NCBI GenBank assembly: GCA_000004985.1
Contig: GG738854.1
Length of the DNA: 64,000 nucleotides
Origin: Naegleria gruberi
Lineage: Eukaryota
Strand: one strand, 5' to 3'
Position 1 is the first letter of the stretch. Every line of letters begins with the position of its first letter. Of this stretch, positions 14,310 to 60,405 are shown piece by piece. The notes beneath the pieces are model-generated. The model was not told the origin of the DNA. It worked only from the letters and a program-made list of their open reading frames with translations, and searched no databases. The position numbers and the translations under genes are program-made.

Positions 14310-15220
14310 GGCTGGTTTAGGTTTTAAAGGTTTTTTTTTAACAGTCCAAATGTGAAATTCACTTGTACGGTTTCGTCTAAATACTTTCGGCAGCACCGGC
14401 GCAAACAAAGGAAACCCTCAAAAAACATGGATGAATGATGGCAAACCTGGAAGGGTACTTTGTGTAGATCAACAAGAATATGAGCCACCAAACAAGTTTG
14501 CAAAGCAATACGTTTCTACTGCAAGCTCAGCAAAATAATCTGCAACACATAAATTATTCGATATTACCTCTGCATATGATCATTTCGTTACATTCCCAAA
14601 CTCAAACCTTACCAAATCACAAAGTAGAAAAAGCAATTTTGGGTTGTGAAATTGGTCTCTTGCCATTTTTCCCGAATTTGTGATATCATAAACATCAGAG
14701 AACATTAACAAACTGCAATGATATCAATATTAATTCTTTCTTTGCATTGTCCTTTGGGTCTCTTCTTACGCGCACAATCTGCATTGACTCTTCGTATTTG
14801 CTTTAGTCAAAAACAGATTTTTCTATTCTTGTTAATAGGACCAAAATAACCTCATTAAGGATTAATATATCACTAACTGAGTGCCTAATCAAGTCGGTAC
14901 TTGAACGGTTTTTTGTCCTTACTGAGAGGTTGAGCAAATTGAATGTGTATGACTCATTATTTTGTTCCATTAAATTAGCTTGATGTTTTTTCTTCCCACA
15001 TGTTAAATGATTTAATTAAGTTATGGTGATGATGATGAATTTGACCAGCTGATAGAGTCATTTTCATGATCAAATACATCCCGATTCATTCCTTTCTATA
15101 CATATAATTTCATTACCACAACAAACAATAAATTCATAAAGTGGCAAAGTCAATATTTTCCTAATTGCTTGCCAAATTCCAATATTGGAGAAATACATAG
15201 ATGATAATCGCCATGATGTT

Positions 15221-15769
15221 ATTATTACCAGGGTTCTCCACAGGGTTAATAATTAAAAAGGAAAAGCTGGTTTTGTATTGAGCTTGTATTTTTTTGGAAC
15301 AGGTAAATAGAATTGTTTTGGATTGTGTGTTTATTGAAAATTTTGTTGGGATGAAGTGGGTGTTTTCACCGGAGCAGCAGTTTGCATGTCCGCACAAGCA
15401 AACGCCAGCGTGAAGGTCTGGTTCTTGGTAGCTGTGTGCTGATAACACCATCCAATCAACAGCTATGATACATCATCGTGCAAATGAAAATTTGAAATTT
15501 TCAACATTACGTCAATTGACTACTAAAATTATTATTTGTCTATGTTGATGATATTTGTATTAATTGATATGATTCAATAATATTACTCATTCCGAAGCTT
15601 TACATCACAGTACAAGTAGCCACGTAACAAAACTGCATCCACAACAAATTCATTTTTTATATTTGCAACGGCTAGCGATGGCGGTACGCAACTAAAACAG
15701 AACTATAACGAAAAGCTTGATACCAATCGGCAGCAAACTGCTGCTCCTGTGGAGAACCCTGATTATTAC
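15221..15769. mobile_element. non-autonomous hAT-like MITE (533-bp element plus 8-bp target-site duplications)
   Basis: Left TIR 15229-15244 'CAGGGTTCTCCACAGG' is the exact reverse complement of right TIR 15746-15761 'CCTGTGGAGAACCCTG' (16/16). Immediately outside both TIRs is the identical 8-mer 'ATTATTAC' (15221-15228 and 15762-15769). An 8-bp TSD and a TIR starting CAGNG are hAT hallmarks (compare Ac 'CAGGGATGAAA'). The interior is GC-richer than the flanks and has no transposase-sized ORF. Confidence 0.6.
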
Positions 15770-16099
15770 TCTGTCCAGATCTAAAAAAGGGTAAGTAACG
15801 TCAAGATTATATTATTATTTTCCACTTGCGATTTACTAGTAGGAACAAATGCAAAAGTGGCCCTGAGGGTACATCCCATTAAGAACATTGATTACAATCT
15901 TTGCATCCGTAGTTGAAGAAGGTGGGAAGTCGAGTCTTTTTGTTTTATTAAAAATAAATTATTAATAATTTAATTTTTAAATGCTATAATAGAGAGCAAA
16001 ACGATTAAGGTTCAATTAGAGGAGAAGATTAAAGAGGAATTTTAAGAAATAACAATATTCACCACGGTGATAAAAATATATTTCAAATTTTACAAAAAA

Positions 16100-16993
16100 A
16101 TGTTTAAATTGCAAAATGTACTTTTTCTTCGGAATAATTTATTTGGATTGAAATTAGCAAGAATTAATGCACAACAACAACATCAAATGCATACAAAATG
16201 TTCTCAACAAGCTTATACATGGAAATCGGAAATATTAGCAAATGAATTTTCACTATTGACTGATGAAAAGATGAATTCTGCTCCCTTCCGATTTATTCAA
16301 CCCTTGTTGAGACACTTTTCGGAAAGAGTTAATAATATGGAGAATGTTGGAGGTTTTAAAGAACCAATACCTGTTCAATATTTAAATGATTTGAGTTGTT
16401 CAATGATGAAGAATATTCAATTTTCAACAAGCATGACTGATGATAGTGAATGGTTTAGGAAATTAAAATTTGTGGATCAGGACTTTATTATGGCCAATGT
16501 ATCGTCCGAAAAATTGGAAGAAGGGTTTTGGTATGAGAGGCATATTTGTGAAACGAGTCAAGTTCCTACTCGATTCAATAATTTGCACGATTTTTATGGG
16601 TTTCTGATATGGATGACCTTTCCAAAGACAAAGAGATTGTTCAATTTGTTGCATAATCAAAACATGTTGGAGAGGGATAATCCACATTGTAAGAAGAGAT
16701 CACCCACACAAAATTTCCTTACACTTTTTGATGAGTGTGGTGTGTTGGTGTGTATTGAGGAAAATCATTTCGAGGAGTTGAAGAGTTTGCTATACAACAT
16801 GGAATTTAAAGAACTATTTTGGAAGAGGAGAGAGGTAGTGGAGGAAAACATGCTGTTTATCAATTTTGGACATTCAATATTGGAAATGCTTACAATGAGA
16901 CCTTACATTGGATATACCACAAAGTTTACAGCCGTACCTGTTAATTCTGAAACATGTAAGTCTTTAATCGCCAACTTTTGTTCACAGAGATAG
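16100..16993 (+). CDS. conserved hypothetical protein
   Basis: ATG at 16100 in 'tacaaaaaaaATGttt'; the track ORF's first codon at 16067 is GTG. Complex, non-repetitive composition ('..FNNLHDFYGFLIWMTFPKTKRLFNLLHNQ..'). A 3' extension into the 16978..17247 ORF is possible via a 38-nt intron (see findings). Confidence 0.5.
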   Translation: MFKLQNVLFLRNNLFGLKLARINAQQQHQMHTKCSQQAYTWKSEILANEFSLLTDEKMNSAPFRFIQPLLRHFSERVNNMENVGGFKEPIPVQYLNDLSCSMMKNIQFSTSMTDDSEWFRKLKFVDQDFIMANVSSEKLEEGFWYERHICETSQVPTRFNNLHDFYGFLIWMTFPKTKRLFNLLHNQNMLERDNPHCKKRSPTQNFLTLFDECGVLVCIEENHFEELKSLLYNMEFKELFWKRREVVEENMLFINFGHSILEMLTMRPYIGYTTKFTAVPVNSETCKSLIANFCSQR

Positions 16994-17296: not shown

Positions 17297-17369
17297 GCCC
17301 CGCTAGCTCAGTCGGTAGAGCGTTGGACTTTTAATCCAACGGTCGTGGGTTCGAGCCCCACGTGGGGCG
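17297..17369 (+). tRNA. tRNA-Lys (anticodon UUU)
   Basis: Acceptor stem GCCCCGC/GTGGGGC (one G-U pair), D-arm GCTCAGTCGGTAGAGC (A box), anticodon loop CT-TTT-AA, T-arm GTGGG-TTCGAGC-CCCAC (B box), discriminator G. 73 nt, no intron. Followed by the run 'gcaattttttttttgc' (Pol III terminator, 17375-17386). Confidence 0.9.
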
Positions 17370-25567: not shown

Positions 25568-26383
25568 TTTTAATTTATTAATTTTAATAACAATAATAAT
25601 TTTAATGATGTGACGAGGGAGTGTAAAATTTATGATGACCTTTTTTATCTTCTCTCGTTTTAGTAAAATTAAATCGATATGGCTTAGTGAGATGCATCGA
25701 TAGTAGATAGCAAATTATATCATTAGAGTTGGGTGGAAGAAATTTATTGGAATTGAATATGGAGAGTCATCATTGTGTTGATTAGAACGGAGCTCACAAT
25801 TAATTGAAGACCTTGGGTCGTCAAATTGTCTTATCAACTTCTTCAAATTACCTTTCTAATTGGCTCTTCTCCAAGTTTCTCATTATTGCCTCAATAATGA
25901 ATTGTCAGATTTGTCATCTTTGTGGCTTCTTTAAAAATGTAGTATTATCGTCAAGAAGTATGAAAATCAAGTTTAAACTTGTGACCAATTTTTGCTTCTG
26001 AAGAGTCAATAGTCATGGCATTGGTGTATCGACATTATGATTTTGGCTACAGTTGTGCTGTATTGGTAGAACGGCAAATGAAACTCTTGGTTTTTGCTTC
26101 TTTCTTTGCTGATCCATGTTGTTAACCTCCTTCCGATGATGGTTGCACCATGATTTTACCATGATTTTGGGTAAGTGAGAAGAAGGATAGGAGTTTCAAT
26201 GAACTTGAAAGAGAAATTACCAGATTGAATGAAATTACATGACGAATTTGTTTGGTGTTGTTGTGTGGGCTTTGTATTGTTGGATGAGGTTTTTTTTACT
26301 GCGTTCAACCTCCAAAACATTTCATTGTAAAATTCTAGTCACCCGTTAATGATAGAAAATTTGTTGAAAAAAAAAATCGCAAG

Positions 26384-26430
26384 GTGAGTAACCTCATAAC
26401 GTTATAGTTTTTTCTTACAATTATTATCAG
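26384..26430 (+). other. putative 5'UTR intron of rpl21 (GTGAGT...TTATCAG)
   Basis: 'aaaaaaaaaatcgcaag|GTGAGTaacc...ttattatcAG|aattcaaaATG'. Intron size (47 nt) matches the other introns in the window, and 5'UTR introns are common in ribosomal protein genes. Cannot be confirmed without transcript data. Confidence 0.3.
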
Positions 26431-26438
26431 AATTCAAA

Positions 26439-26924
26439 ATGCCACACAGCTTCGGTTATAGAGCCAGAACCAGACACACCTTCGCCAGAGGTTTCAGAGC
26501 CCACGGTATTCTCTCATCAAAGTTCTTCTTGACCAACTTCAAGCTTGGTGATTTCGTTACCGTCAAGGTTAACAGTAACGAACACAAGGGTATGCCACAC
26601 AGAATTTACCACGGTAAGACTGGTAGAGTCTGGAACGTTACCCCAAGAGCTGTTGGTGTTGAAATCACTAAGCAAGTCAGAGGTAGAATCATCAACAAGA
26701 GATTCCACGTCAGAATTGAACACGTCGTGAAGAGCAAGTGTAGACAAGACTTCTTGGAAAGATGTAAGCTTAACAACAAGATTGCTCTTGAAAATAAGGA
26801 TAAGCCAGTTGAACAAAGAAAGAAGTTCGTCAAGAGACTCCCAGCTCAACCAAGACCATCTTTCACTTTGAAGGTTGAAAATGTTGTTGATGTCATTCCA
26901 CCAGAATTCGTTGAAACTGCTTAA
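26439..26924 (+). CDS. rpl21: 60S ribosomal protein L21 (eL21)
   Basis: 'MPHSFGYRARTRHTFARGFRAHG...KGMPHRIYHGKTGRVWNVTPRAVGVEITKQVRGRIINKRFHVRIEHVVKSKCRQDFLERCK...LPAQPRPSFTLK..PPEFVE' is collinear with yeast Rpl21 (MGKSHGYRSRTRYMF..KGMPHKFYQGKTGVVYNVT..HIKHSKCRQEFLERVK..QPAQPRE..). Strong third-position C/G codon bias typical of highly expressed genes. Confidence 0.9.
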   Translation: MPHSFGYRARTRHTFARGFRAHGILSSKFFLTNFKLGDFVTVKVNSNEHKGMPHRIYHGKTGRVWNVTPRAVGVEITKQVRGRIINKRFHVRIEHVVKSKCRQDFLERCKLNNKIALENKDKPVEQRKKFVKRLPAQPRPSFTLKVENVVDVIPPEFVETA

Positions 26925-27202
26925 ATTTCATAATAAATTAATCATAAAAATTCAAAAACATTTAATTTTCTATTAAATATCATCATTAAATTTTCATACT
27001 TGCCGTATTTTCATTCAACGTTTTCCATCATGTGATTAGATAAATTTTTGTTTGATGCCTCTTGCTTGCAATCCATCAAATTACCAATTTTTAACGGTTG
27101 CAATGTTCAAATATTACTTGTACAGTTTGAAAAAAATAACGAATCACCACATAGCAATCCCTTTCGCTTGATCATCAAGTTGTACAAGCAAAAGATTTAA
27201 AA

Positions 27203-30200
27203 ATGCAAGAATCCATTATGAGTGCTGAGACTCTAGAAGAGGGTGATGCTAACGCTTTAAATTTAATAAATAGTTTAGTAACTGCGGAAGAGGAACAACA
27301 ACTTCAACATCATCATGCTCACCACCAACATCATGATTTTACAGAACTGACAGATAATCATTTTCTTGGTGACCATCATTCTGCTACCACTCCAACCCTT
27401 TCCGATTCTAAAATTCATCATGACAATGAGATACATTCCGTTACGGATGAAGAACATTTATTCAATTTTAATTTAGGTAGTGGAACAACTCCAACTAATC
27501 AACCACACCGAGATGACGATTCATCCTCTCATCATCTTGTTGGTAATTTTGATTCAACAACCTCTACTCCAATAGTACAAACAAACACAGGTCAGCCTTT
27601 GGATGATAGGGATCGATTATTAAAACGAATTAATGAATTAGAAGAACAAGTAAGAGCTTTGATAGAAGACAACAAACAAAAGACTGATGCATTTAATGTT
27701 ATCACACAACATAATATTGATTTATCATATCAATTACAAATTATTCAATATTACCATCCCGAATTAATATCAGCAATTCCTCCACCAAGTGCTGCTAATC
27801 CAACACCAAATTCTCCTCTCATGTTATCACCAAATAATCACCACCAGCAACATATTGCAACTACATCACCATTCTTTTCAAATCCAACAGGTATTACGCC
27901 ATCTTCTCACTTTTCAACTTCTCCAGGCGTATTATCAAATATTACATCACCAATGACCTCTCCTTCTGCTAATACTCCCAACATGTCAAATAATATTAAT
28001 GGAATTTCACCAAATCTTCAACCTTCATTGGTTCCAAATAATCCAGCAGGTTATTACCCACTTCATCATCCACATTTAATGCAACCAACTCCTCTCATTC
28101 CACAACAACCAAAGAATGGAACAAAAAAGAAGAAGAAAAAAGGAGAATCACCTGCAGTTAATTCTTCATCATTTCAATCACCAATTTCCTCTGTAACATC
28201 TCCAACTTCCTCTGTACCATTAAATAAGAAACAGACTAAAAAGAAGAGAAAACATGAAAGTGATGGAGAGGAAACTTCCGAGTCTGAAGATGAAACACCT
28301 GAAAATGCCACTTCTACCCCTTCAAACCTTCCACCTGTTAATACTCATTTACCACCACCACCTTCATCAAATCTTCCACCAAAACCTAAAGTAACACTTC
28401 CACCTCAACCATCTAAGCATTTGCCAAAGCTTCCACCAAGATCTCTACTTCCTGGTATGGATCCTTTTGCTATGCACGCTACAACACCTTTTCCATTTCC
28501 ACCTCCTTCTGGTTTACCTCATCCACCATTGGGAATGAGTGAACATCCTTTAATGATGGATCCATCACTTCTTCAACATCATATGGCTCATCATTCTTCA
28601 GAAGCTCCTTCTCCAGGTGCCTTCTCACCAATGGGAACAACAGCTGAAACTCCAGGTGCATCAAATCAACGAAGAAGAAGTAAAAAGGGTGAAGGAATTG
28701 AGAATAGTGATAGTAGTGAGACATTAAATCCATCCAATGCTGAATTAGAAATTAGAAAATTATTTGGAAAAGTTAACAATGGAGGAAAACGAGGTATTTT
28801 AGCTGTTCATGCAGGTGATGGTTTGGAAGCTGTTAAAGAAATTATCAGACAAACTCTGGATCAGGTAGAATTACTAAAGAATCGATCTGTTACAGAGTAT
28901 AATTCTAGGAAAGAAAACAATGCTATGAATTGCATTAACAAGGCTTTGGATTTATTACACCAAGCAACACGTGGAATAGTTGGAGGTTTATTACAATTAT
29001 TAGAGTCGAGTATTTCTCAACTTTTAGATGGTACAAGAGATAATTGGGGTTTAGAAATAGCTAAAATGATGGAAAAGAGTTGGTTAGATTTATTCTCAGT
29101 TATATTTGTAGAATCTGAAATCACCAGCTATACACAATTAGGTACTCTTGTTGATCCTATACAAATGCAAAGTTGTCTTGAAGAACTTCAATCATTTGGA
29201 AAATCTCTTTCTTACTTTAAATTTGACCATCTGACTAGAGTGTTCAATATCATGTTTGGTTACATGAAGAAGAATAACTCTGTAGAGTGGTATCTGGGCT
29301 TTTGTTTACAAATCAGATATTACAAAGAGTATTGTGCCAAAATGATTGAACTTTATCACTATGAAGATTGTTTTAACAATATTGTAAATAATATTCTCAC
29401 AGGAAATGCTCACTCTGAAAGAACAGGAGATTATAAGGATGAAGATAAGACATATCTTGTCGAGTATGCTGTTTTATGTCTCACTAAAATTTATGATCAA
29501 TCTGTAGAAATTGTCAGACAAGAATATATTGATAACCACATTGAAGATAGTATGCCAATCAACTTGTCAAATACTCAATATTCAGAAATGTTGGAAAAGA
29601 TAATGGGTAGCTGTGTAAATATTCAAAATATTGTTTTATACCCAAGAGAATTAGTCCCTCTACTCAAATTTTTGTTAAAGGTTTTCCCAAGTGATGAAGC
29701 TTTTATAGATGGAGGAGGTTTGGGAGAAACAAGACAAGATATTAGACATTTAACATTTATTGCAGATCTTTTATTTATTATGAGTAGATTTATTGTTGAA
29801 TTAGATGAATATAACGAAACCATTGATTCTGTCAAAGCAGTAGGAAGAAAGATTGTACTAGAATGTACAGACAACCTCCTTCAAAAGCTGATTAAGATTA
29901 GATTTGAAGGTGCTGCAACACATTTGAAGGAAATTTTGGAAACAAATGACCTTTTCAAGATGAGTATTGCTCAAATTTGTGAGAAGGCTGTTTGGATACC
30001 AATTCATCAAGAGGAGAAGGATTATAACTGGAAGTCTCTCCATGACTATAATGAAACTCTGCAGATCAAACAAGATGAAGCTGCTGTTACTGTTAGAGGA
30101 AAACTTTTGGAACATTTGAAAATACTATTACCTGGTGCATCTCAATATTTATCAGTAATGATTGATTGTATTAATTATGCACTTGGTTGTAAAATTGAAA

Positions 30201-36847: not shown

Positions 36848-37340
36848 TGTGATTAATTCTCCAAAGTGAGGCAATCTGATACTCCAGTTTTTCCTTAATT
36901 GTGTCCATTTACTTTTATTAAGGGTGCCCTGCAAATTGGTATTATTTCCTATTGTCTGATGATTAAGTTGATGATGATGATTATTATTGAATAATTTTCG
37001 TGATGATGAAGATGACGACCATGATGATGATGATTGATGATGTGATGAGGTGCCTTCTTTGGCGACCTTCCAACCTCTATATAAACACTATCTGAACTGA
37101 GAATCGACTTGTCTCTTCTTGGAAACGAAGTGTGCATTTTTTTGAGTGTTGTTAAGGGAAGTTTGAATACGGATTTGGAGTTCCATAGCCATAACTGAAA
37201 CATTGTTGTAGAAAGAAAATTCATTTCTTGGGTTATGATATATTGGTGAAGATGAATTGGAGGGTTGCTGCTTATTCCAGATGTCTACAACCAGCACACT
37301 ATGGAAAGAATATAAAAGAATAATTTTTTAAATATGCGAA

Positions 37341-37425
37341 GCTCATATAGCTCAGTGGTAGAGCATTTGTCTTATGAGAACTTAAGGTTAGCAGATGGCC
37401 GAGGGTTCGACCCCCTCTATGAGCA
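37341..37425 (+). tRNA. tRNA-Ile (anticodon UAU) with 13-nt intron
   Basis: Acceptor GCTCATA/TATGAGC, D-arm GCTCAGTGGTAGAGC, anticodon stem TTTGT/GCAGA (two G-U pairs), loop CT-TAT-G[intron AGAACTTAAGGTT at 37377-37389]A, variable TGGCC, T-arm GAGGG-TTCGACC-CCCTC, discriminator A. Eukaryotic tRNA-Ile(UAU) characteristically carries an intron. Followed by 'aattttttgc'. Confidence 0.8.
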
Positions 37426-37781
37426 GTTCAAATTTTTTGCTTTTTAGTAGTGTTAAAGATTTATTAGAAGATTTCAATTCCAATTAATTAGCTCCAATCT
37501 TTTGTAGAGAATAAGAAATCTTTACGAGGTTGTTTTTGAGAATACTTTCTCTTGACTACCATGGAATGCGAATCTCTTTGATTCCACTTCATACTGGTAA
37601 CCTGAATATTGTCCAACTTGTTTTTAAGTGGTTTGTCAGATACGTGGTGTAAATAGGGTTCGTCCTGGCCAAATGACTTTCCAGATGAAGATCTGCCAGA
37701 AGAGCTCCAAGGAGACAATTGTCCAAAACGAAAGCTTTGTAAAGAGATTAGGTTAGGTAATATAAAGCAAAAAATTTGAAC

Positions 37782-37866
37782 TGCTCATAGAGGGGGTCGA
37801 ACCCTCGGCCATCTGCTAACCTTAAGTTCTCATAAGACAAATGCTCTACCACTGAGCTATATGAGC
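37782..37866 (-). tRNA. tRNA-Ile (anticodon UAU) with 13-nt intron, inverted duplicate
   Basis: Exact reverse complement of the 37341-37425 copy, convergent (tail-to-tail) with it. Confidence 0.8.
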
Positions 37867-38059
37867 TTCGCATATTTAAAAAATTATTCTTTTATATTCT
37901 TACCCATTCAACTTTTCTTGTCTCTTTATGGTTTGATGCTACATTTCAGAACCAACATTCATTCCTTTCTGGCCAGAATAAAAATTTAGAAAGATTATTT
38001 GATGAAATTGTTTACAAATTTAATGTAATCATCAATTTGTTCGTTTCAAAACAAAAAAA

Positions 38060-39208: not shown

Positions 39209-41025
39209 ATGGAGGGTGAAATTTTTATGATTGTTGAAAAAAAAATGACAACAAACAATCGCACGAAAATTATTTATTGCACAACTTTGTTGGTCGTTGT
39301 GCTCTCGTTAATGATGACGGTTGGAGTGCAAGGAGCCGATGATTTATTTCTCGTTGTTCGTCCATCATCATCTTCCCCAATGAAGAGAAGTTTGGATTCA
39401 TTTTACATGTTGCCAAAGGCTAAAATTAATCTTCTCGGAGGAGATGAAGTACATGCTCATGTACACTATGATGAGACAACTAACAAGACTGGGTGGGCCT
39501 TGTTGAGTCTTACAACAAATCCTGATGAAACAGATGCTGATCAAGCTTTTGCTGCTGGTTTTGTTGAAGGTATGTTGTTGGTAAAATGGAATTCATCAAT
39601 ATTCATGGAAATCATTTGAATGCACAGGTTATGTAACTGCCAATTTAATGGAAACCTATTGGCCTGGATTTAACAATGCAAGCTATACTCCAAGTTTGGA
39701 TCCTCAACTCAATCAATTTTTGGATGACAATTTACGTTTCATGAGAAGAAAAATTGCTGAATCTAGAAATGGAAATACCAATGAAAAACTTTATTGGACT
39801 CATGTAGGTTTGGTTTTGGATCAAGTTGAAGGTCTCTATGCTGGCTATTTAAAAAAAATGGCTGAACAATTCAAAACACCAACATTGACACTTCTAGAAA
39901 TGCTCAAATTCCAAGTAGCTGCTGACACTGATGACTTGTATTCCAAGTGGCAACCAACAAATTTTGACAATATGAGCAAGGAAGAAATTGAAAAATATAC
40001 ACTCCTTCACACAAGATGCACTGCATTCATCAAGTATAGTGAAGACAAGAAGAATCTTTTCCTTACTCATGCCACCTGGGCTCCTTATCAATACATGTTG
40101 AGAATTTACAAACATTACAGAATTAATTTTAAGGATACACCTGCCAAGTTGGTCAGCTTTTCTTCATCACCTGGATGGTTGGCTAGTGGTGATGATTTCT
40201 ACATTACTAGTGCTGGACTTATTGTTACTGAAACAACAAACTCCATCTATAATCAAACATTGTACAATTATGTTACATCAGAAACTGTATTATATTGGAT
40301 GAGAAATATTGTTGCAAACAGATTAGCCAACTCTGCCAAAGAATGGACTGAACTCTTTGCCAAATATAATAGGTATGTATTTTTAACAAAATGAATGTTA
40401 AATCCAGAACCACTATAGTGGCACTTATAACAATCAATGGATGATTATTGACACTAAGAAATTTGTACCAGGAGCTGATAAATCAGATCCAGAATTATTC
40501 TATATTTTGGAACAAATTCCAGGAGATTGTATGAGTGCTTCAATGAGTCACATTCTCGATGAAAGATATTGGCCATCATTCAATCTTCCTTACTTCTCAT
40601 ATATTTTTAATGTTAGTGGATATCCAGAAAAATTGAAAAAGTATGGAGACTTTTTCAGTTATGACAAGTGTCCTAGAGCTAAGATTTTCAAACGTGATGC
40701 ACCTTCAGTCAATACCATTGAGGATGTCAAGAAATTGATCAGATATAATGACTATCAACATGATCCACTTTCATTAGGAGATGCATGCCATCAAATTGCA
40801 TCCAGATGTGATTTGAATCCTGGAGGCTCAGCATTTGGTGCTATTGATGCTAAAGTTACTGACATTGCCTTTGCTAGAAGAAACTTTGCTTTTGCTCAAT
40901 CTGGACCAACTCACGACCAAGAACCAGTATTCAAGTGGAATAATGTTAATAGCCCAGCTAATCCACATCCTGGACAACCTGTTGAATTTGATTTTAATTG
41001 GGTATCTATGGCTCCAATATATTAA
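39209..41025 (+). CDS. phospholipase B-like protein (PLBD/LAMA family), 3 exons
   Basis: Exon 1 is 39209 (or ATG 39245, 'gaaaaaaaaATGaca', signal peptide MTTNNRTKIIYCTTLLVVVLSLMMTVGVQG)..39569. Intron 1 is 39570..39627 (GTATGT..CACAG, 58 nt, phase 1). Exon 2 is 39628..40372. Intron 2 is 40373..40418 (GTATGT..CTATAG, 46 nt, phase 2). Exon 3 is 40419..41025. The junction recreates the family motif 'YNSGTYNNQWMIID'. Other motifs: 'YWTHVGLVLDQVEGLYAGY', 'THATWAPYQYMLRIYKHY', 'SSPGWLASGDDFYITSAGLIVTETT'. Confidence 0.75.
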
Positions 41026-43712: not shown

Positions 43713-44028
43713 TTCTTCTTTTCAAAAAACTATTTAGCAATCTTTTTCATATTAAATCGCTATTGCCTTTTTATGAGATATCAACAAGCAGTCTATTTAT
43801 TACTTGATTTTGTAAAGTTTTTTCTTTTCCTATCATCTTTCTGCTCAAAAAAAATCCACTTTAACTCTTGTTAATTCCATTGGTGAGTAGTGTCGATAGA
43901 TCTGTAAGCGTTTTGGCTCATTAACCTTTTCGTGAGTATCCCCGCCTTAGTTACAATCGCTTTTCCATCGAACCAGTAATCTCCAGTCTGCACTTGAAGA
44001 ACCAAAGTCACGTTGATCTCAAAAAAAA

Positions 44029-46281
44029 ATGTTTAGTAACTGCCATCATCATGATGATGCTGAACGTGTAGTAATTATATTGGACGATCATGACAAATTT
44101 ATGGAACAATTATTGAATAGCAAATATAAACAAGAACGAAATTTATCATGCTACAAACAAATATTAAAATATTTAACTAATACGAGAGGTTTAATATTAA
44201 AGTATTATGAATTACCTGTTATATTACGAAGAGATCGGAGATTCATCACTGAAATTGCACAAACTTTTGAATTTTACCAACAATTACCTGAAGAATTTAA
44301 ATCCGATAAACAAGTAATGCTAAATTGTTTTAAAAAGAAAGTATTTAATGGAAGTGATATTAAGAGTGGATATATTCCCTCTAATTTAATGAATGATAGG
44401 AAATTTATATTGGAATTAATTGAAGGAAATCCAACATGTCTCTATTTAGTACCGAAAGAAAGAGAATTCGTGTTGGCAGCAATGAAACACGATATTATAT
44501 ATTTGGGATTTCTCCCAGGAAGTGAAAAGAAGAATGAATCATACATGTGGGAATTGTTTTTGAAAAATTGGGAAAATTTAAGATTTGCAAGTGGTGAATT
44601 ACTAAATAATCCATCATTTGCTATAAAAGTAAGAAAGCATGATACCAATACTTTCAACTATTATTGTGGACGGCCACATTTGGCGGTTCATGCAAGGGAT
44701 AAATTTCGAAATAATAGAGAATATGTGCTTTTTGCTATTTTACATGGAAAAGCTGATTTTACAATGATAAAAAAGGTATTTCAAGCGGATTTGGAAATTA
44801 AAATGGCAAATAATATTAAAACTGATGCCTCCTTATGGAAATTAAAGGAAGAATGGGCAAATGACAAGGAAATGATTTTGAAATATGTCAAACATAATTC
44901 AAATATATTGAAATTTATTAATTTGGAATTACTACAGGATTATGAATTTAATATTAAATTAATTTACAAAAATATTGAAAGTATTCAATTTATTAATGAA
45001 TGCAATACTAATTTTAAACAATTATTTACACAATCAGATAAAACTGAATTAATTTCTAGATATTTAAGCAACAAAAAATTTAACATTAATTCCAAAATTA
45101 TAAATCCAACTAATATTAGAGCATTTGGTTCCAAAATTAATTATATACATTTTATAGAGGAATATTTAAATGAAAACGATTTAATTTATATAACAAGTAA
45201 TATTGATGGACAAGCATGTTACGGTTTGTTAAACGTAATTTCCAATAAGAAAATTTTCAATGAATGCTTACAATTATGGAAAATAACAGTTAAAAAGCAT
45301 TATTCATGTTATGAATTATTTAATATAAAATATACCAAACAAGATATTATTGAGATAATTTCATCCATGCATGAATCTCCTTTTCCATTCCTGGCACACA
45401 TTGATAGAAATGTATTTAGCTCTGAGAGTGAAGTTCTTCTCATTGCAATTCAAACCCATTTCAAGTGCTTTGAATTGGCAAGTAAAGAACTGAAATCTGA
45501 CTTGAATTTTATTAGAAAGTCAGTCAATTTAAATAGAAATATTATTAAAGTAATAGATTTGCAAATTGTACAAGATAATTTGGATTTATTGATTATTTAT
45601 ATAAATTATAAATTAAAAATCAATACCATGTATGGATATCAAAATAGCGCTCATGCATTAAATCCATTAATTAACATATTAGCAAAACATTTACAAAATG
45701 AGGATACAGTTTTACAATTAGTAGAAATACCCCAATTTGTAAATTTATTTTATGGCCATATAGATATTAATTTAAGATCAAGTGAGGAATTCTGTTTAAA
45801 AATATTAAAAACAGATTTGAATAATGCCACTAAAATTCCAAATTTAATTAAATATAGAAATTTCATAATTGAATTTCTAAAAGAGGGAAAATCCATTACA
45901 TTCATTCCTAAAATATTCGAACAGGATGAGGAATTTTTACATTTATTTTTTAAAAACTGGAATCGTACGGAATACCTTCCAATATTACCAGCGGATGAAA
46001 TTTTTATTGGTATTCTAATTAAGGAATTGAAAATTAACCCATCCATATATAGAAATTTTAATAATAGTGATCCGTTGAAACATAATTGGGATATATTATT
46101 GAATGTTGCCAGAGATGTAAATAGCTGTTTAGTTTTTCCCACCACAATATGGCAAGATGAGAATTTTAAATTGGAACTTGTGAAGAGAGGAATTTTTCCA
46201 CCTTCCTTTTTGAAACATTTTAATAGCATTTTGAACGATATGGATTTGATTGTAGAAAATGGTTTTTACTTGATTCAATAA
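44029..46281 (+). CDS. DUF4116 repeat-containing protein
   Basis: 750-aa ATG ORF after an A9 run. At least 8 tandem ~30-aa repeats of the DUF4116 type ('D/N-+-E/Q-hydrophobic-hydrophobic-L-x-hydrophobic-hydrophobic-K-x-N'): 'DKQVMLNCFKKKVFNGSDI', 'DRKFILELIEGNPTCLYLV', 'EREFVLAAMKHDIIYLGF', 'NPSFAIKVRKHDTNTFNYY', 'NREYVLFAILHGKADFTMI', 'DKEMILKYVKHNSNILKFI', 'DYEFNIKLIYKNIESIQFI'. Confidence 0.55.
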   Translation: MFSNCHHHDDAERVVIILDDHDKFMEQLLNSKYKQERNLSCYKQILKYLTNTRGLILKYYELPVILRRDRRFITEIAQTFEFYQQLPEEFKSDKQVMLNCFKKKVFNGSDIKSGYIPSNLMNDRKFILELIEGNPTCLYLVPKEREFVLAAMKHDIIYLGFLPGSEKKNESYMWELFLKNWENLRFASGELLNNPSFAIKVRKHDTNTFNYYCGRPHLAVHARDKFRNNREYVLFAILHGKADFTMIKKVFQADLEIKMANNIKTDASLWKLKEEWANDKEMILKYVKHNSNILKFINLELLQDYEFNIKLIYKNIESIQFINECNTNFKQLFTQSDKTELISRYLSNKKFNINSKIINPTNIRAFGSKINYIHFIEEYLNENDLIYITSNIDGQACYGLLNVISNKKIFNECLQLWKITVKKHYSCYELFNIKYTKQDIIEIISSMHESPFPFLAHIDRNVFSSESEVLLIAIQTHFKCFELASKELKSDLNFIRKSVNLNRNIIKVIDLQIVQDNLDLLIIYINYKLKINTMYGYQNSAHALNPLINILAKHLQNEDTVLQLVEIPQFVNLFYGHIDINLRSSEEFCLKILKTDLNNATKIPNLIKYRNFIIEFLKEGKSITFIPKIFEQDEEFLHLFFKNWNRTEYLPILPADEIFIGILIKELKINPSIYRNFNNSDPLKHNWDILLNVARDVNSCLVFPTTIWQDENFKLELVKRGIFPPSFLKHFNSILNDMDLIVENGFYLIQ

Positions 46282-46943
46282 CCCTATTTATTCATCTTCA
46301 ATATACTGCTGCAAAAATAAATCAAATAAATGAAGATAAGCTTATTAAACTAGGAAGGAATACAGAATTAACCGACAAATCACTAAAGAAAGATAAACAA
46401 GCTTCATCATCAAAGAACAGTAAGGAAGAAAATCCTGAGGAAATCAATAGAAAGTGGCATTTAAATTCTAGAAGGAAAAGAAATCCACAACAGTTTAAAA
46501 CTCTTTCTCCCTAAAGAAGAAACTAAACAAATAGAGACAAACATGAAGCTTTTATCATCTGGCTCATCGACGATTATAAGTAATACATCATGTTGATTAA
46601 GAGTTTGATTATTAAAATGTCTAACAAGGTCCAAAATGTAAGATTGTGAAATTGTATTCACGTATCATAAGTAAGAAGATGTTGTCCTTTCCAATTGAAA
46701 CATTTTTTTGATAAGAAAACTATTTCTAGAATTGAAATTGCCAGAATCAATAAGGGTTCTGAAGTAAAGGTGTTAAAGAAGAGAGATTGGAGGAAACAAG
46801 TTCAATTGGAAAGAGAAAAATGTATAAATTCATGCATTTTCCTCAAATATTCTCCATTGGAAAGAAATCAATGAATTGTGAATTTAGGTAAATTCTGATA
46901 AATTTCCAAATTAAATAAAAAACTCTCAGAGTTTATATGTAAA

Positions 46944-48452
46944 TTACATAACTGGATTTGTAATGATAATGTCAATATCGAAAAGTTGATGGTTTTCTGG
47001 TGATTCATGCAAGTATGTTTTCAGTTTTGCAAGCATTTCCTTCTCACTCTTTGATGTAAATATTGGGAGATATGGTGAGCAAGCAACCATAGTATTCCAA
47101 CCTCCGCATGCAACACAAACAGCTTTCAATTGGATATTTCCCCCAGAGTTGATTTTCATAGAGTCTGGGAATAAATTCATTTCTGATAGAGTTGTTTGAG
47201 TTTTCAAAATTCCTGGTTGATTTTGTTCCTCCTTTGTACTTTGATTGAATCCACTGTGTCCAAACAAGTAAGCTTTACCTTCAGAATCAAGAGCTGCTGA
47301 GTGATAACCTCCACAACTCACTTGAACAATATTCTTGAAATTTTTGTGTTCAAATAAACGACAATCCTCAGCACCACTCTCGGATTTTCTATTGAGACAA
47401 TTATATTGATTTCTTCCGCATGAGTAGACCACCCCTTCCTGAGTAGTAAATAAGGTGTGATAGTAACCAGAGTCAGCTGTCACTACTTTGTGATTAAATC
47501 CTTCAACCTTTTTTGTTGTATGCTTTCCATTTGCTGATCCAAAAAGCATATGACCCAATTCACCACAAGCATAAACTTCTCCCTGATCAGTAATGAAAAA
47601 ACTATAGTCATAACCACCAGATGCAGAAATTAATTTAGGGATTCCAGTGATTTTAGTGATAGCTCTTCCAAAACCTTGCCCACAACAGTAGGCATTTCCA
47701 TCAAAACTTACAAAGATTGAATGATAGTAACCTGCGTGAATGGATCTGATCTTTTCAGGTATATCAATCTTGTGTGTCAAACCTTTGTATCCTTCACTCA
47801 ATTGACCATGAGAGTTATCTCCACAGCCGTACACATCACCTTCCTTGGATAAAAACAATGTAAAGTAATATCCACAAGATGCTTGAACAATAAAGTGAGG
47901 AATTAATTCAGAAAAAATTTTAAAATCTTTCAATTCACTTTCTGATCTATCAACTCCGACCTGACCATTAGAATTAGAACCACAGCCCAATGCAAATCCA
48001 TCTTCAGTAATTGCAATAGCTTCTGTATAGCCCATAACGACTGAACTAATCTTGAATGGTGATCGAATATATGCAGGATTCTCAGCATCAGAAATTGCGA
48101 TCCAATTATCACCAAGGCCTCTCATCGAACTAGTTTCACCAAAACTAAACAAAACAGCTTGGGAAGCTTCCAACAGAGAGAAGGATGTTGGTTCGGATTT
48201 ATCGTTACGATAGGCTATTCTAGCTTTTATCATTTCTTTAAATTTAGCAGTATAGAAAGTAGCCTGATCTTTACGAAACTTGGTATCTTGACTTTGATAG
48301 GAGGCATCAATGTGAGGAATACTCATACTAGGAATAATTCCAATAGCACCAAATGATTTGGATTCACCTTGAAGACCACCCGATCCATTGTTTGAAGTTT
48401 CGGTTGATGATTTTGGTTTCTTCTTGAAAATGTTGGTGACGAAAGAAAGCAT
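46944..48452 (-). CDS. RCC1-repeat (regulator of chromosome condensation-like) beta-propeller protein
   Basis: 502 aa; ATG at 48452 after an A-run. Six or seven RCC1 blades with the 'G.V+.CG.N..GQLG' signature: 'GFALGCGSNSNGQVGVD', 'GDVYGCGDNSHGQLSEG', 'GNAYCCGQGFGRA', 'GEVYACGELGHMLFG', 'GVVYSCGRNQYNCLN', 'GKAYLFGHSGFNQS'. Confidence 0.7.
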   Translation of the reverse strand: MLSFVTNIFKKKPKSSTETSNNGSGGLQGESKSFGAIGIIPSMSIPHIDASYQSQDTKFRKDQATFYTAKFKEMIKARIAYRNDKSEPTSFSLLEASQAVLFSFGETSSMRGLGDNWIAISDAENPAYIRSPFKISSVVMGYTEAIAITEDGFALGCGSNSNGQVGVDRSESELKDFKIFSELIPHFIVQASCGYYFTLFLSKEGDVYGCGDNSHGQLSEGYKGLTHKIDIPEKIRSIHAGYYHSIFVSFDGNAYCCGQGFGRAITKITGIPKLISASGGYDYSFFITDQGEVYACGELGHMLFGSANGKHTTKKVEGFNHKVVTADSGYYHTLFTTQEGVVYSCGRNQYNCLNRKSESGAEDCRLFEHKNFKNIVQVSCGGYHSAALDSEGKAYLFGHSGFNQSTKEEQNQPGILKTQTTLSEMNLFPDSMKINSGGNIQLKAVCVACGGWNTMVACSPYLPIFTSKSEKEMLAKLKTYLHESPENHQLFDIDIIITNPVM

Positions 48453-60332: not shown

Positions 60333-60405
60333 CGCCCCACGTGGGGCTCGAACCCACGACCGTTGGATTAAAAGTCCAACGCTCTACCGACTGAGCTAGC
60401 GGGGC
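60333..60405 (-). tRNA. tRNA-Lys (anticodon UUU), second copy
   Basis: Exact reverse complement of the 17297-17369 gene. It shares the immediate flanks 'gagca|tRNA|gttgcaatttt' and is followed by T-runs on the minus strand. Confidence 0.9.

What the first reader, a model, noticed from the sequence alone, without database searches (positions are those of the whole stretch)
15221..15769. Candidate novel hAT-like MITE with perfect 16-bp TIRs and 8-bp TSD
Seen directly: 15229-15244 'CAGGGTTCTCCACAGG' is the exact reverse complement of 15746-15761, and the 8-mer ATTATTAC abuts both TIRs on the outside (15221-15228 and 15762-15769). This is the geometry a cut-and-paste transposon produces. An 8-bp TSD plus a TIR starting CAGNG is diagnostic of the hAT superfamily (compare Ac 'CAGGGATGAAA'). 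The 533-bp body is too small for a transposase and is GC-richer than the surrounding intergenic DNA, consistent with a non-autonomous element mobilised in trans. hAT elements are not among the classical Dictyostelium transposon families, so this could mark an undescribed DNA-transposon family in this lineage, with an autonomous partner elsewhere in the genome.
Basis: partly seen in the sequence, partly recalled or inferred. Interest (0 to 1): 0.75.

Follow-up and report, generated by a model that had tools for sequence, protein, structure and literature searches.

The report
Small hAT-like transposon in Naegleria gruberi
This is a real 533-bp non-coding "cut-and-paste" transposon copy of hAT type, with a second copy found at another site, but it lies in the amoeboflagellate Naegleria gruberi and not in Dictyostelium, so it is an ordinary kind of repeat.

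Summary
CAGGGTTCTCCACAGG (15229-15244) is the exact reverse complement of 15746-15761, and ATTATTAC abuts both arms on the outside. Simulated windows gave 0 of 300 such structures, about 1e-5 expected per window.

The host is Naegleria gruberi, not Dictyostelium. A neighbouring ORF is 100% identical to an N. gruberi protein.

A spurious ORF inside the element led to a second copy on an environmental contig (L019). Its sample also holds a contig 99.7% identical to another part of this window, so it contains an N. gruberi strain. Over the 333 element bases on L019 there are no substitutions and one 15-bp indel. Similarity stops exactly at the outer TIR base, and the flanks are unrelated. This is therefore a mobile, multi-copy, recently active element with no coding capacity and no RNA-family signal.

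The 8-bp duplication, short TIR and CAGGG terminus fit the hAT superfamily. No transposase was found, because the N. gruberi genome could not be searched, so the superfamily call is an inference (about 0.7). Repbase and Dfam could not be checked either.

Verdict: a new or possibly already catalogued member of a known kind, of low to moderate interest.

The parts
15221..15228 (.). Left copy of the 8-bp target-site duplication, ATTATTAC
   Evidence: Read. One search gives the maximal flank match as exactly 8 bp. It fits the nTnnnnAn target preference reported for Hermes (PMC10368747).
15229..15244 (+). Left terminal inverted repeat, CAGGGTTCTCCACAGG. CAGGGTT occurs again at 15241.
   Evidence: (I1). 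The outer boundary at 15229 is confirmed by the second copy L019, whose identity starts exactly at this base.
15245..15745 (.). Non-coding body of the element
   Evidence: Longest stop-free stretch is 81 codons with no Pfam match. No Rfam match. RNA folding z-scores run from -0.6 to +0.3. There is no other similarity within the window.
15358..15385 (+). Internal degenerate second 'left end', GGGTGTTTTCACCGGAGCAGCAGTTTGC. It is inverted relative to the 29-bp right terminus (15733-15759), with 24 matches in 28 columns.
   Evidence: (I2). The same sequence is present in the second copy L019, so it belongs to the family and not just to this locus. Its origin is unexplained.
15477..15491 (.). 15-bp segment present here and absent from the second copy. 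It is the only difference between the two copies over 333 bp.
15733..15761 (-). Right terminus. The 16-bp TIR is 15746-15761. A 13-bp subterminal extension (15733-15745) has its inverted partner at 15358-15385, not next to the left TIR.
15762..15769 (.). Right copy of the 8-bp target-site duplication, ATTATTAC

Best explanation
Window 15229-15761 is one copy of a 533-bp non-autonomous class II (cut-and-paste) DNA transposon of Naegleria gruberi, most probably of the hAT superfamily.

Inferred mechanism: a transposase encoded elsewhere in the genome binds the 16-bp TIRs and subterminal sequences, excises the element, and inserts it across an 8-bp staggered cut. Repair of that cut produced the ATTATTAC duplication.

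The insertion lies in non-coding DNA, about 330 bp upstream of the start codon of a DUF3025 gene.

Shown here: the TIR and TSD structure, its non-random nature, the lack of coding or RNA signal, and a second, essentially identical copy at an unrelated site with the break exactly at the TIR edge.

Inferred only: the superfamily, mobilisation in trans, and recent activity.
For: - Structure: perfect 16-bp TIR and exact 8-bp TSD, with 0 of 300 simulated windows showing such a structure.
- Second copy: phmmer with the element's spurious 96-aa ORF against 1.84e9 proteins gave one hit, P0010, 99% identical over residues 1-75, which is the element part only. P0010 is encoded on ENA contig L019.
- Comparison of the copies: L019 matches window 15229-15576 with 0 substitutions and one 15-bp indel. 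Identity ends at the first TIR base, the flanks agree at only 16 of 60 positions, and the adjacent 8-mer is GAGAATGT rather than ATTATTAC.
- Same species: the same ENA sample holds contig L023, which encodes exactly the window's L21e protein and is 99.7% identical to window 26061-29478. The second copy therefore comes from an N. gruberi strain.
- Fit to hAT: the superfamily is defined by 8-bp TSDs and TIRs of 5-27 bp (PMC4316626; PMC3942097). The terminus CAGGG fits the hAT YARNG terminus (my own knowledge). ATTATTAC fits nTnnnnAn (PMC10368747).
- Not a gene: no Pfam domain in the element's ORFs and no ORF restored when the element is removed in silico.
Against: - No hAT transposase or longer element with the same TIRs was seen. 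No window ORF of 150 aa or more has a transposase domain.
- Only two copies are known, and only the left end of the second copy is visible, so its own TSD cannot be checked.
- The 8-mer flanking the second copy, GAGAATGT, does not fit nTnnnnAn.
- An 8-bp TSD is not unique to hAT.
- The two ends are asymmetric. The cognate of the 29-bp right terminus lies 129 bp inside the left end, which is unusual and unexplained.
- Pattern scans of JGI metagenomes and GTDB genomes gave only single, chance-level hits.
Confidence: 0.68

Rival explanations
1. It is a genuine non-autonomous cut-and-paste transposon, but of another superfamily that also makes duplications of about 8 bp, such as P, Mutator-like, Merlin, Novosib or Zisupton.
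For: The superfamily call rests only on TSD length, TIR length and the terminal pentamer. No transposase was linked to the element. One of the two flanking 8-mers does not fit the hAT Ac-type target motif. The only superfamilies named in the N. lovaniensis repeat table are CMC-EnSpm and PiggyBac, not hAT (PMC6125883).
Against: From my own knowledge of these families, not tested here: CAG...CTG termini with a short TIR and an exact 8-bp TSD are the classic hAT combination. Mutator-like elements usually have 9-10-bp TSDs and G-rich termini. Merlin termini start with GG. CMC elements make 2-4-bp TSDs and piggyBac makes TTAA, which excludes the two superfamilies reported for Naegleria.
Confidence: 0.2
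2. It is a chance inverted repeat, or a locally duplicated segment, that has never moved.
For: Only one copy exists in the 64-kb window. About 0.25 chance inverted repeats of 16 bp or more are expected per window.
Against: The joint TIR plus 8-bp flank match is expected about 1e-5 times per window, and 0 of 300 simulations showed it. An independent copy sits in unrelated flanks, with the break exactly at the TIR edge.
Confidence: 0.02
3. The interior is a structured non-coding RNA gene or a regulatory module, and the inverted termini are part of its structure.
For: The whole element folds better than shuffled versions as single-stranded DNA (z = -3.95). Its core reaches 54% GC.
Against: The centroid structure of that fold keeps little beyond the pairing of the two TIRs. 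The internal segments give z-scores between -0.6 and +0.3. No Rfam family reaches threshold, and the best E-values are about 1-5. An RNA gene would not explain the 8-bp duplication or the second copy breaking at the TIR edge.
Confidence: 0.03

Closest known systems
hAT-superfamily MITEs, for example mRover1 of Lachancea yeasts (PMC4316626), Mar of Drosophila (PMC3517528) and the BuT2 MITEs (PMC3942097)
   Same: Size of a few hundred bp, no coding capacity, short TIRs beginning CAG, exact 8-bp TSDs that differ between copies, and near-identical copies that suggest recent mobilisation in trans.
   Different: The host is a heterolobosean amoeboflagellate. No cognate autonomous element is known here. 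The ends are asymmetric, with a degenerate second left end 129 bp inside. Only two copies have been documented so far.
Autonomous hAT elements (Ac, hobo, Hermes)
   Same: 8-bp TSD. The TSD fits the Hermes target preference nTnnnnAn (PMC10368747). The TIR length of 16 bp compares with 17 bp in Hermes. The terminus begins CAG.
   Different: There is no transposase gene. The element is 533 bp against about 2.5-5 kb. Short subterminal repeat motifs like those bound by the Hermes BED domain were not evident.
Repeats reported for Naegleria genomes: CMC-EnSpm, PiggyBac, DIRS and Gypsy in N. lovaniensis (PMC6125883)
   Same: Same genus. The genomes are TE-poor, with a small DNA-transposon fraction.
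   Different: Those DNA-transposon superfamilies make 2-4-bp or TTAA duplications, not 8 bp (my own knowledge). No paper in the held library mentions hAT in Naegleria.

Membership tests
hAT superfamily (non-autonomous member) | 8-bp target-site duplication | tested here: met
   ATTATTAC lies on both sides, and the match is exactly 8 bp. Definition from PMC3942097 and PMC4316626.
hAT superfamily (non-autonomous member) | Short TIRs (5-27 bp) | tested here: met
   A perfect 16-bp TIR. Range taken from PMC4316626.
hAT superfamily (non-autonomous member) | Terminal motif 5'-YARNG (CAGNG or TAGNG) | tested here: met
   The terminus reads CAGGG. The motif itself is recalled from Kempken & Windhofer 2001 and Rubin et al. 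2001 and was not verified in the held library.
hAT superfamily (non-autonomous member) | Target preference nTnnnnAn (Ac/Hermes type) | tested here: inconclusive
   ATTATTAC fits, with T at position 2 and A at position 7. The 8-mer beside the second copy, GAGAATGT, does not. Two sites are too few to judge.
hAT superfamily (non-autonomous member) | Cognate autonomous element with the same termini encoding a hAT transposase (BED zinc finger, RNase-H-like DDE, hATC dimerisation domain) | not testable with these tools
   No eukaryotic genome collection is searchable. N. gruberi loci could not be fetched. No transposase domain occurs in any window ORF of 150 aa or more.
MITE (miniature inverted-repeat transposable element) | Under about 800 bp, TIRs, TSD, no coding capacity | tested here: met
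   The element is 533 bp. Its longest stop-free stretch is 81 codons with no Pfam match.
MITE (miniature inverted-repeat transposable element) | Multiple dispersed copies with different flanking duplications | tested here: inconclusive
   One further copy was found at an unrelated site with a different flanking 8-mer. The genome-wide copy number is unknown, and the right end of the second copy was not assembled.
CMC-EnSpm and piggyBac (DNA transposons reported in Naegleria) | 2-4-bp TSD with CACNG termini, or TTAA TSD | tested here: not met
   The TSD is 8 bp (ATTATTAC) and the termini are CAG...CTG.

The most novel reading that the evidence does not exclude
The element belongs to a hAT-type MITE family of Naegleria gruberi that is not yet catalogued and is still active or was active very recently. 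The two copies show zero substitutions over 333 bp, while allelic DNA differs by about 0.2-0.3%. If so, the genome would hold a functional hAT transposase. That would be the first documented active DNA transposon in Heterolobosea and a possible handle for insertional genetics in Naegleria.
Probability: 0.3. Interest if true: 0.4.

Novelty: new member of a known kind. Interest (0 to 1): 0.27.

Why it matters
Naegleria genomes are reported as very poor in transposons: about 0.28% classified TE in N. gruberi in a 2026 preprint and 0.68% DNA transposons in N. lovaniensis. Their repeats are mostly unclassified, and N. gruberi has few genetic tools. A MITE with essentially identical copies points to recent or ongoing transposase activity. 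That would be useful for strain typing, for repeat annotation and possibly as a transposition tool. Beyond that, it is a standard class II element and does not change what is known about transposon biology.

Tried and rejected
- **Fetching the N. gruberi genome locus by exact protein**. Not on record, so no genome-wide copy count and no empty-site test.
- **Orthologous N. lovaniensis locus, L001**. It is not syntenic upstream of the DUF3025 gene and is of no use as an empty site.
- **Exact look-up of 19 local ORFs in the 15-billion-protein collection**. None are present, so the other strain's version of this locus could not be retrieved.
- **The search for homologous proteins with the 74-aa element ORF and with a 524-aa six-frame concatenate**. 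Nothing was found. That index also failed to return P0010, so the negative result is weak.
- **The 16-mer in viral contigs as a control**. It gave 17 single hits, all with only about 18-21 nt of similarity, which is chance level.
- **The extended degenerate TIR pattern in JGI metagenomes and in GTDB genomes**. These gave 2 hits and 1 hit respectively, all single matches of chance length (for the JGI hits).
- **Rfam and RNA folding**. No structured-RNA signal.
- **Pfam scan of all 35 window ORFs of 150 aa or more**. No transposase.
- **Literature**. No held paper reports hAT or MITEs in Naegleria. The N. gruberi genome paper, Arensburger 2011 and Yuan & Wessler 2011 are not held. Repbase and Dfam are not available.
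- **Subterminal short-repeat motifs**. No convincing enrichment.

Full report
**Observation.** ATTATTAC lies at 15221-15228. CAGGGTTCTCCACAGG lies at 15229-15244, and its exact reverse complement lies at 15746-15761. ATTATTAC occurs again at 15762-15769. The flank match is exactly 8 bp.

With up to three mismatches allowed, the 16-mer occurs nowhere else in the window. Among 176 perfect inverted-repeat pairs of at least 11 bp lying 50-3000 bp apart, no other pair has a flanking direct repeat longer than 5 bp.

In 300 first-order Markov simulations of the window, inverted repeats of at least 16 bp arose 0.25 times per window. An 8-bp flank match next to any repeat of at least 11 bp arose 0.0067 times per window. 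The combination never arose. I infer a joint expectation of about 1e-5 per window, so the structure is not a chance event.

The GC excess of the body is small: 37.3% against 34.2% and 31.4% in the flanks.

**Organism.** The window is not from Dictyostelium. The ORF at 16067-16993 (DUF3025) is 100% identical to a predicted protein of Naegleria gruberi. Its next-best matches are N. lovaniensis and N. fowleri at 48-49%. The window's 34% GC is in line with this.

**Anatomy.** The element is 533 bp (15229-15761).
- It has no coding capacity. The longest stop-free stretch is 81 codons, and it has no Pfam match.
- Deleting the element in silico restores no ORF.
- It lies in non-coding DNA about 330 bp upstream of the DUF3025 start codon.
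- No Rfam family matches at gathering score across the whole window other than four tRNA genes. A permissive scan of 15000-16000 gave only E-values of about 1-5.
- Internal segments fold no better than shuffled sequence, with z-scores from -0.6 to +0.3. The whole element scores z = -3.95, and the centroid structure of that fold keeps little beyond the pairing of the two TIRs.

The right terminus continues as a 29-bp sequence, and its inverted partner is not adjacent to the left TIR. It lies 129 bp inside, at 15358-15385, with 24 matches in 28 columns. The element therefore carries an outer perfect left end and an inner degenerate one. I cannot explain how this arose. It is present in the second copy too, so it is a property of the family.

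**A second copy.** No eukaryotic genome can be searched with these tools, and N. gruberi loci could not be fetched. I therefore used the spurious 96-aa ORF that runs from inside the element out through the left TIR (15451 to 15161, minus strand). I searched it with phmmer against 1.84 billion representative proteins.

There was one hit, P0010. It is 99% identical over query residues 1-75, which is the part encoded by the element, and unrelated after that.

P0010 lies on a 703-bp ENA metagenome contig, L019. Comparing L019 with the window:
- The 333 element bases on L019 match window 15229-15576 with no substitution and one 15-bp indel (window 15477-15491).
- Identity starts exactly at the first base of the TIR.
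- The 60 bp outside the TIR agree at 16 of 60 positions.
- The adjacent 8-mer is GAGAATGT, not ATTATTAC.
- That flank carries a tRNA-Arg(ACG) gene.

The same ENA sample contains contig L023. It encodes exactly the window's ribosomal protein L21e and is 99.7% identical to window 26061-29478. The sample therefore holds an N. gruberi strain, and L019 is a second genomic copy in that species.

A sharp break at the TIR edge, unrelated flanks and a different flanking 8-mer are what transposition predicts and what segmental duplication does not. Two paralogous copies with no substitutions, where allelic DNA differs by 0.2-0.3%, suggest recent movement. This last point is an inference.

**Classification.** Papers in the held library define hAT elements by 8-bp TSDs, TIRs of 5-27 bp and a characteristic transposase (PMC4316626; PMC3942097). 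Hermes prefers nTnnnnAn targets (PMC10368747).
- The element meets the TSD and TIR criteria.
- Its terminus CAGGG fits the hAT YARNG motif. I recall this motif from memory and could not verify it.
- ATTATTAC fits nTnnnnAn, but the flank of the second copy does not.
- The defining protein could not be tested. No window ORF of 150 aa or more has a transposase domain, and the rest of the genome is out of reach.

Other superfamilies with duplications of about 8 bp (P, some Mutator-like, Merlin, Novosib, Zisupton) are not formally excluded. From my own knowledge, their usual termini and TSD lengths fit less well. The DNA-transposon superfamilies listed for N. lovaniensis, CMC-EnSpm and PiggyBac (PMC6125883), are excluded by the TSD.

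I put the probability that this is a genuine non-autonomous cut-and-paste element at about 0.9 or higher. I put the probability that it is hAT at about 0.7.

**Other searches.**
- The 16-mer in viral contigs gave 17 single, chance-level hits.
- A more specific degenerate TIR pattern gave two single hits in JGI metagenomes and one in GTDB genomes, all of chance length.
- Two word-indexed protein searches found nothing. That index also missed P0010, so this negative result carries little weight.
- Exact look-ups of 19 local ORFs found nothing. The other strain's allele of this locus, filled or empty, could not be recovered.

**Novelty and interest.** No paper in the held library reports hAT elements or MITEs in Naegleria. 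Naegleria genomes are described as TE-poor. Repbase and Dfam, where such a family may already be listed, could not be consulted.

The kind of element is entirely standard, so at most this is a new member of a known kind. The modest interest lies in the sign of recent activity in a TE-poor protist that has few genetic tools.

Noticed in passing
window 37306-37443 and 37764-37901: A 138-bp perfect inverted repeat. Each arm holds an 85-nt intron-bearing tRNA gene (37341-37425 on the + strand, 37782-37866 on the - strand; Rfam 61.4 bits). ARAGORN could not assign the anticodon. By eye the loop reads CUUAUGA, which suggests tRNA-Ile(UAU) with a short intron..
   Followed up: partly
window 17297-17369 (+) and 60333-60405 (-): Two tRNA-Lys(UUU) genes with identical Rfam scores (70.9 bits), 43 kb apart in opposite orientation. 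The first lies about 1.5 kb downstream of the element. The second element copy (L019) lies about 290 bp from a tRNA-Arg(ACG) gene. Two cases are too few to suggest targeting of tRNA genes..
   Followed up: no
L023 175-334, against window 26058-26061: The N. gruberi-like strain in ENA sample ERZ929261 carries an extra 160 bp where the window has only 'tg'. There is no TIR or TSD at the edges, so this looks like a plain indel polymorphism just upstream of the L21e gene..
   Followed up: partly
window 15021-15107 (+): A cluster of sub-threshold Rfam hits to C/D-box snoRNA families (snoR69Y, U54, SNORD43, sR39, sR1; E-values 0.8-5.6) over a GTGATGATGATGA...CTGA stretch, about 120 bp left of the element. 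It is probably a composition effect of the TGATGA repeat..
   Followed up: no
window 15229-15247: The left end contains CAGGGTT twice, 12 bp apart (15229 and 15241). The right end has it only once..
   Followed up: no
window 44001-47000: An AT-rich stretch (GC 24-28.5% against about 34% elsewhere) that overlaps a 750-aa ORF with DUF4116 repeats (44029-46281)..
   Followed up: no
window 39648-40394 and 40441-41025: A phospholipase B gene is split over two adjacent ORFs that match Pfam profile positions 64-286 and 295-487. This is consistent with a short intron of about 45 bp..
   Followed up: no
tools: P0010 is in the 15-billion-protein collection and is the representative of its own cluster. 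The word-indexed search with a 74-aa query that is 99% identical to it still returned no candidate. Negative results from that index are therefore unreliable for singleton metagenome proteins.
   Followed up: partly
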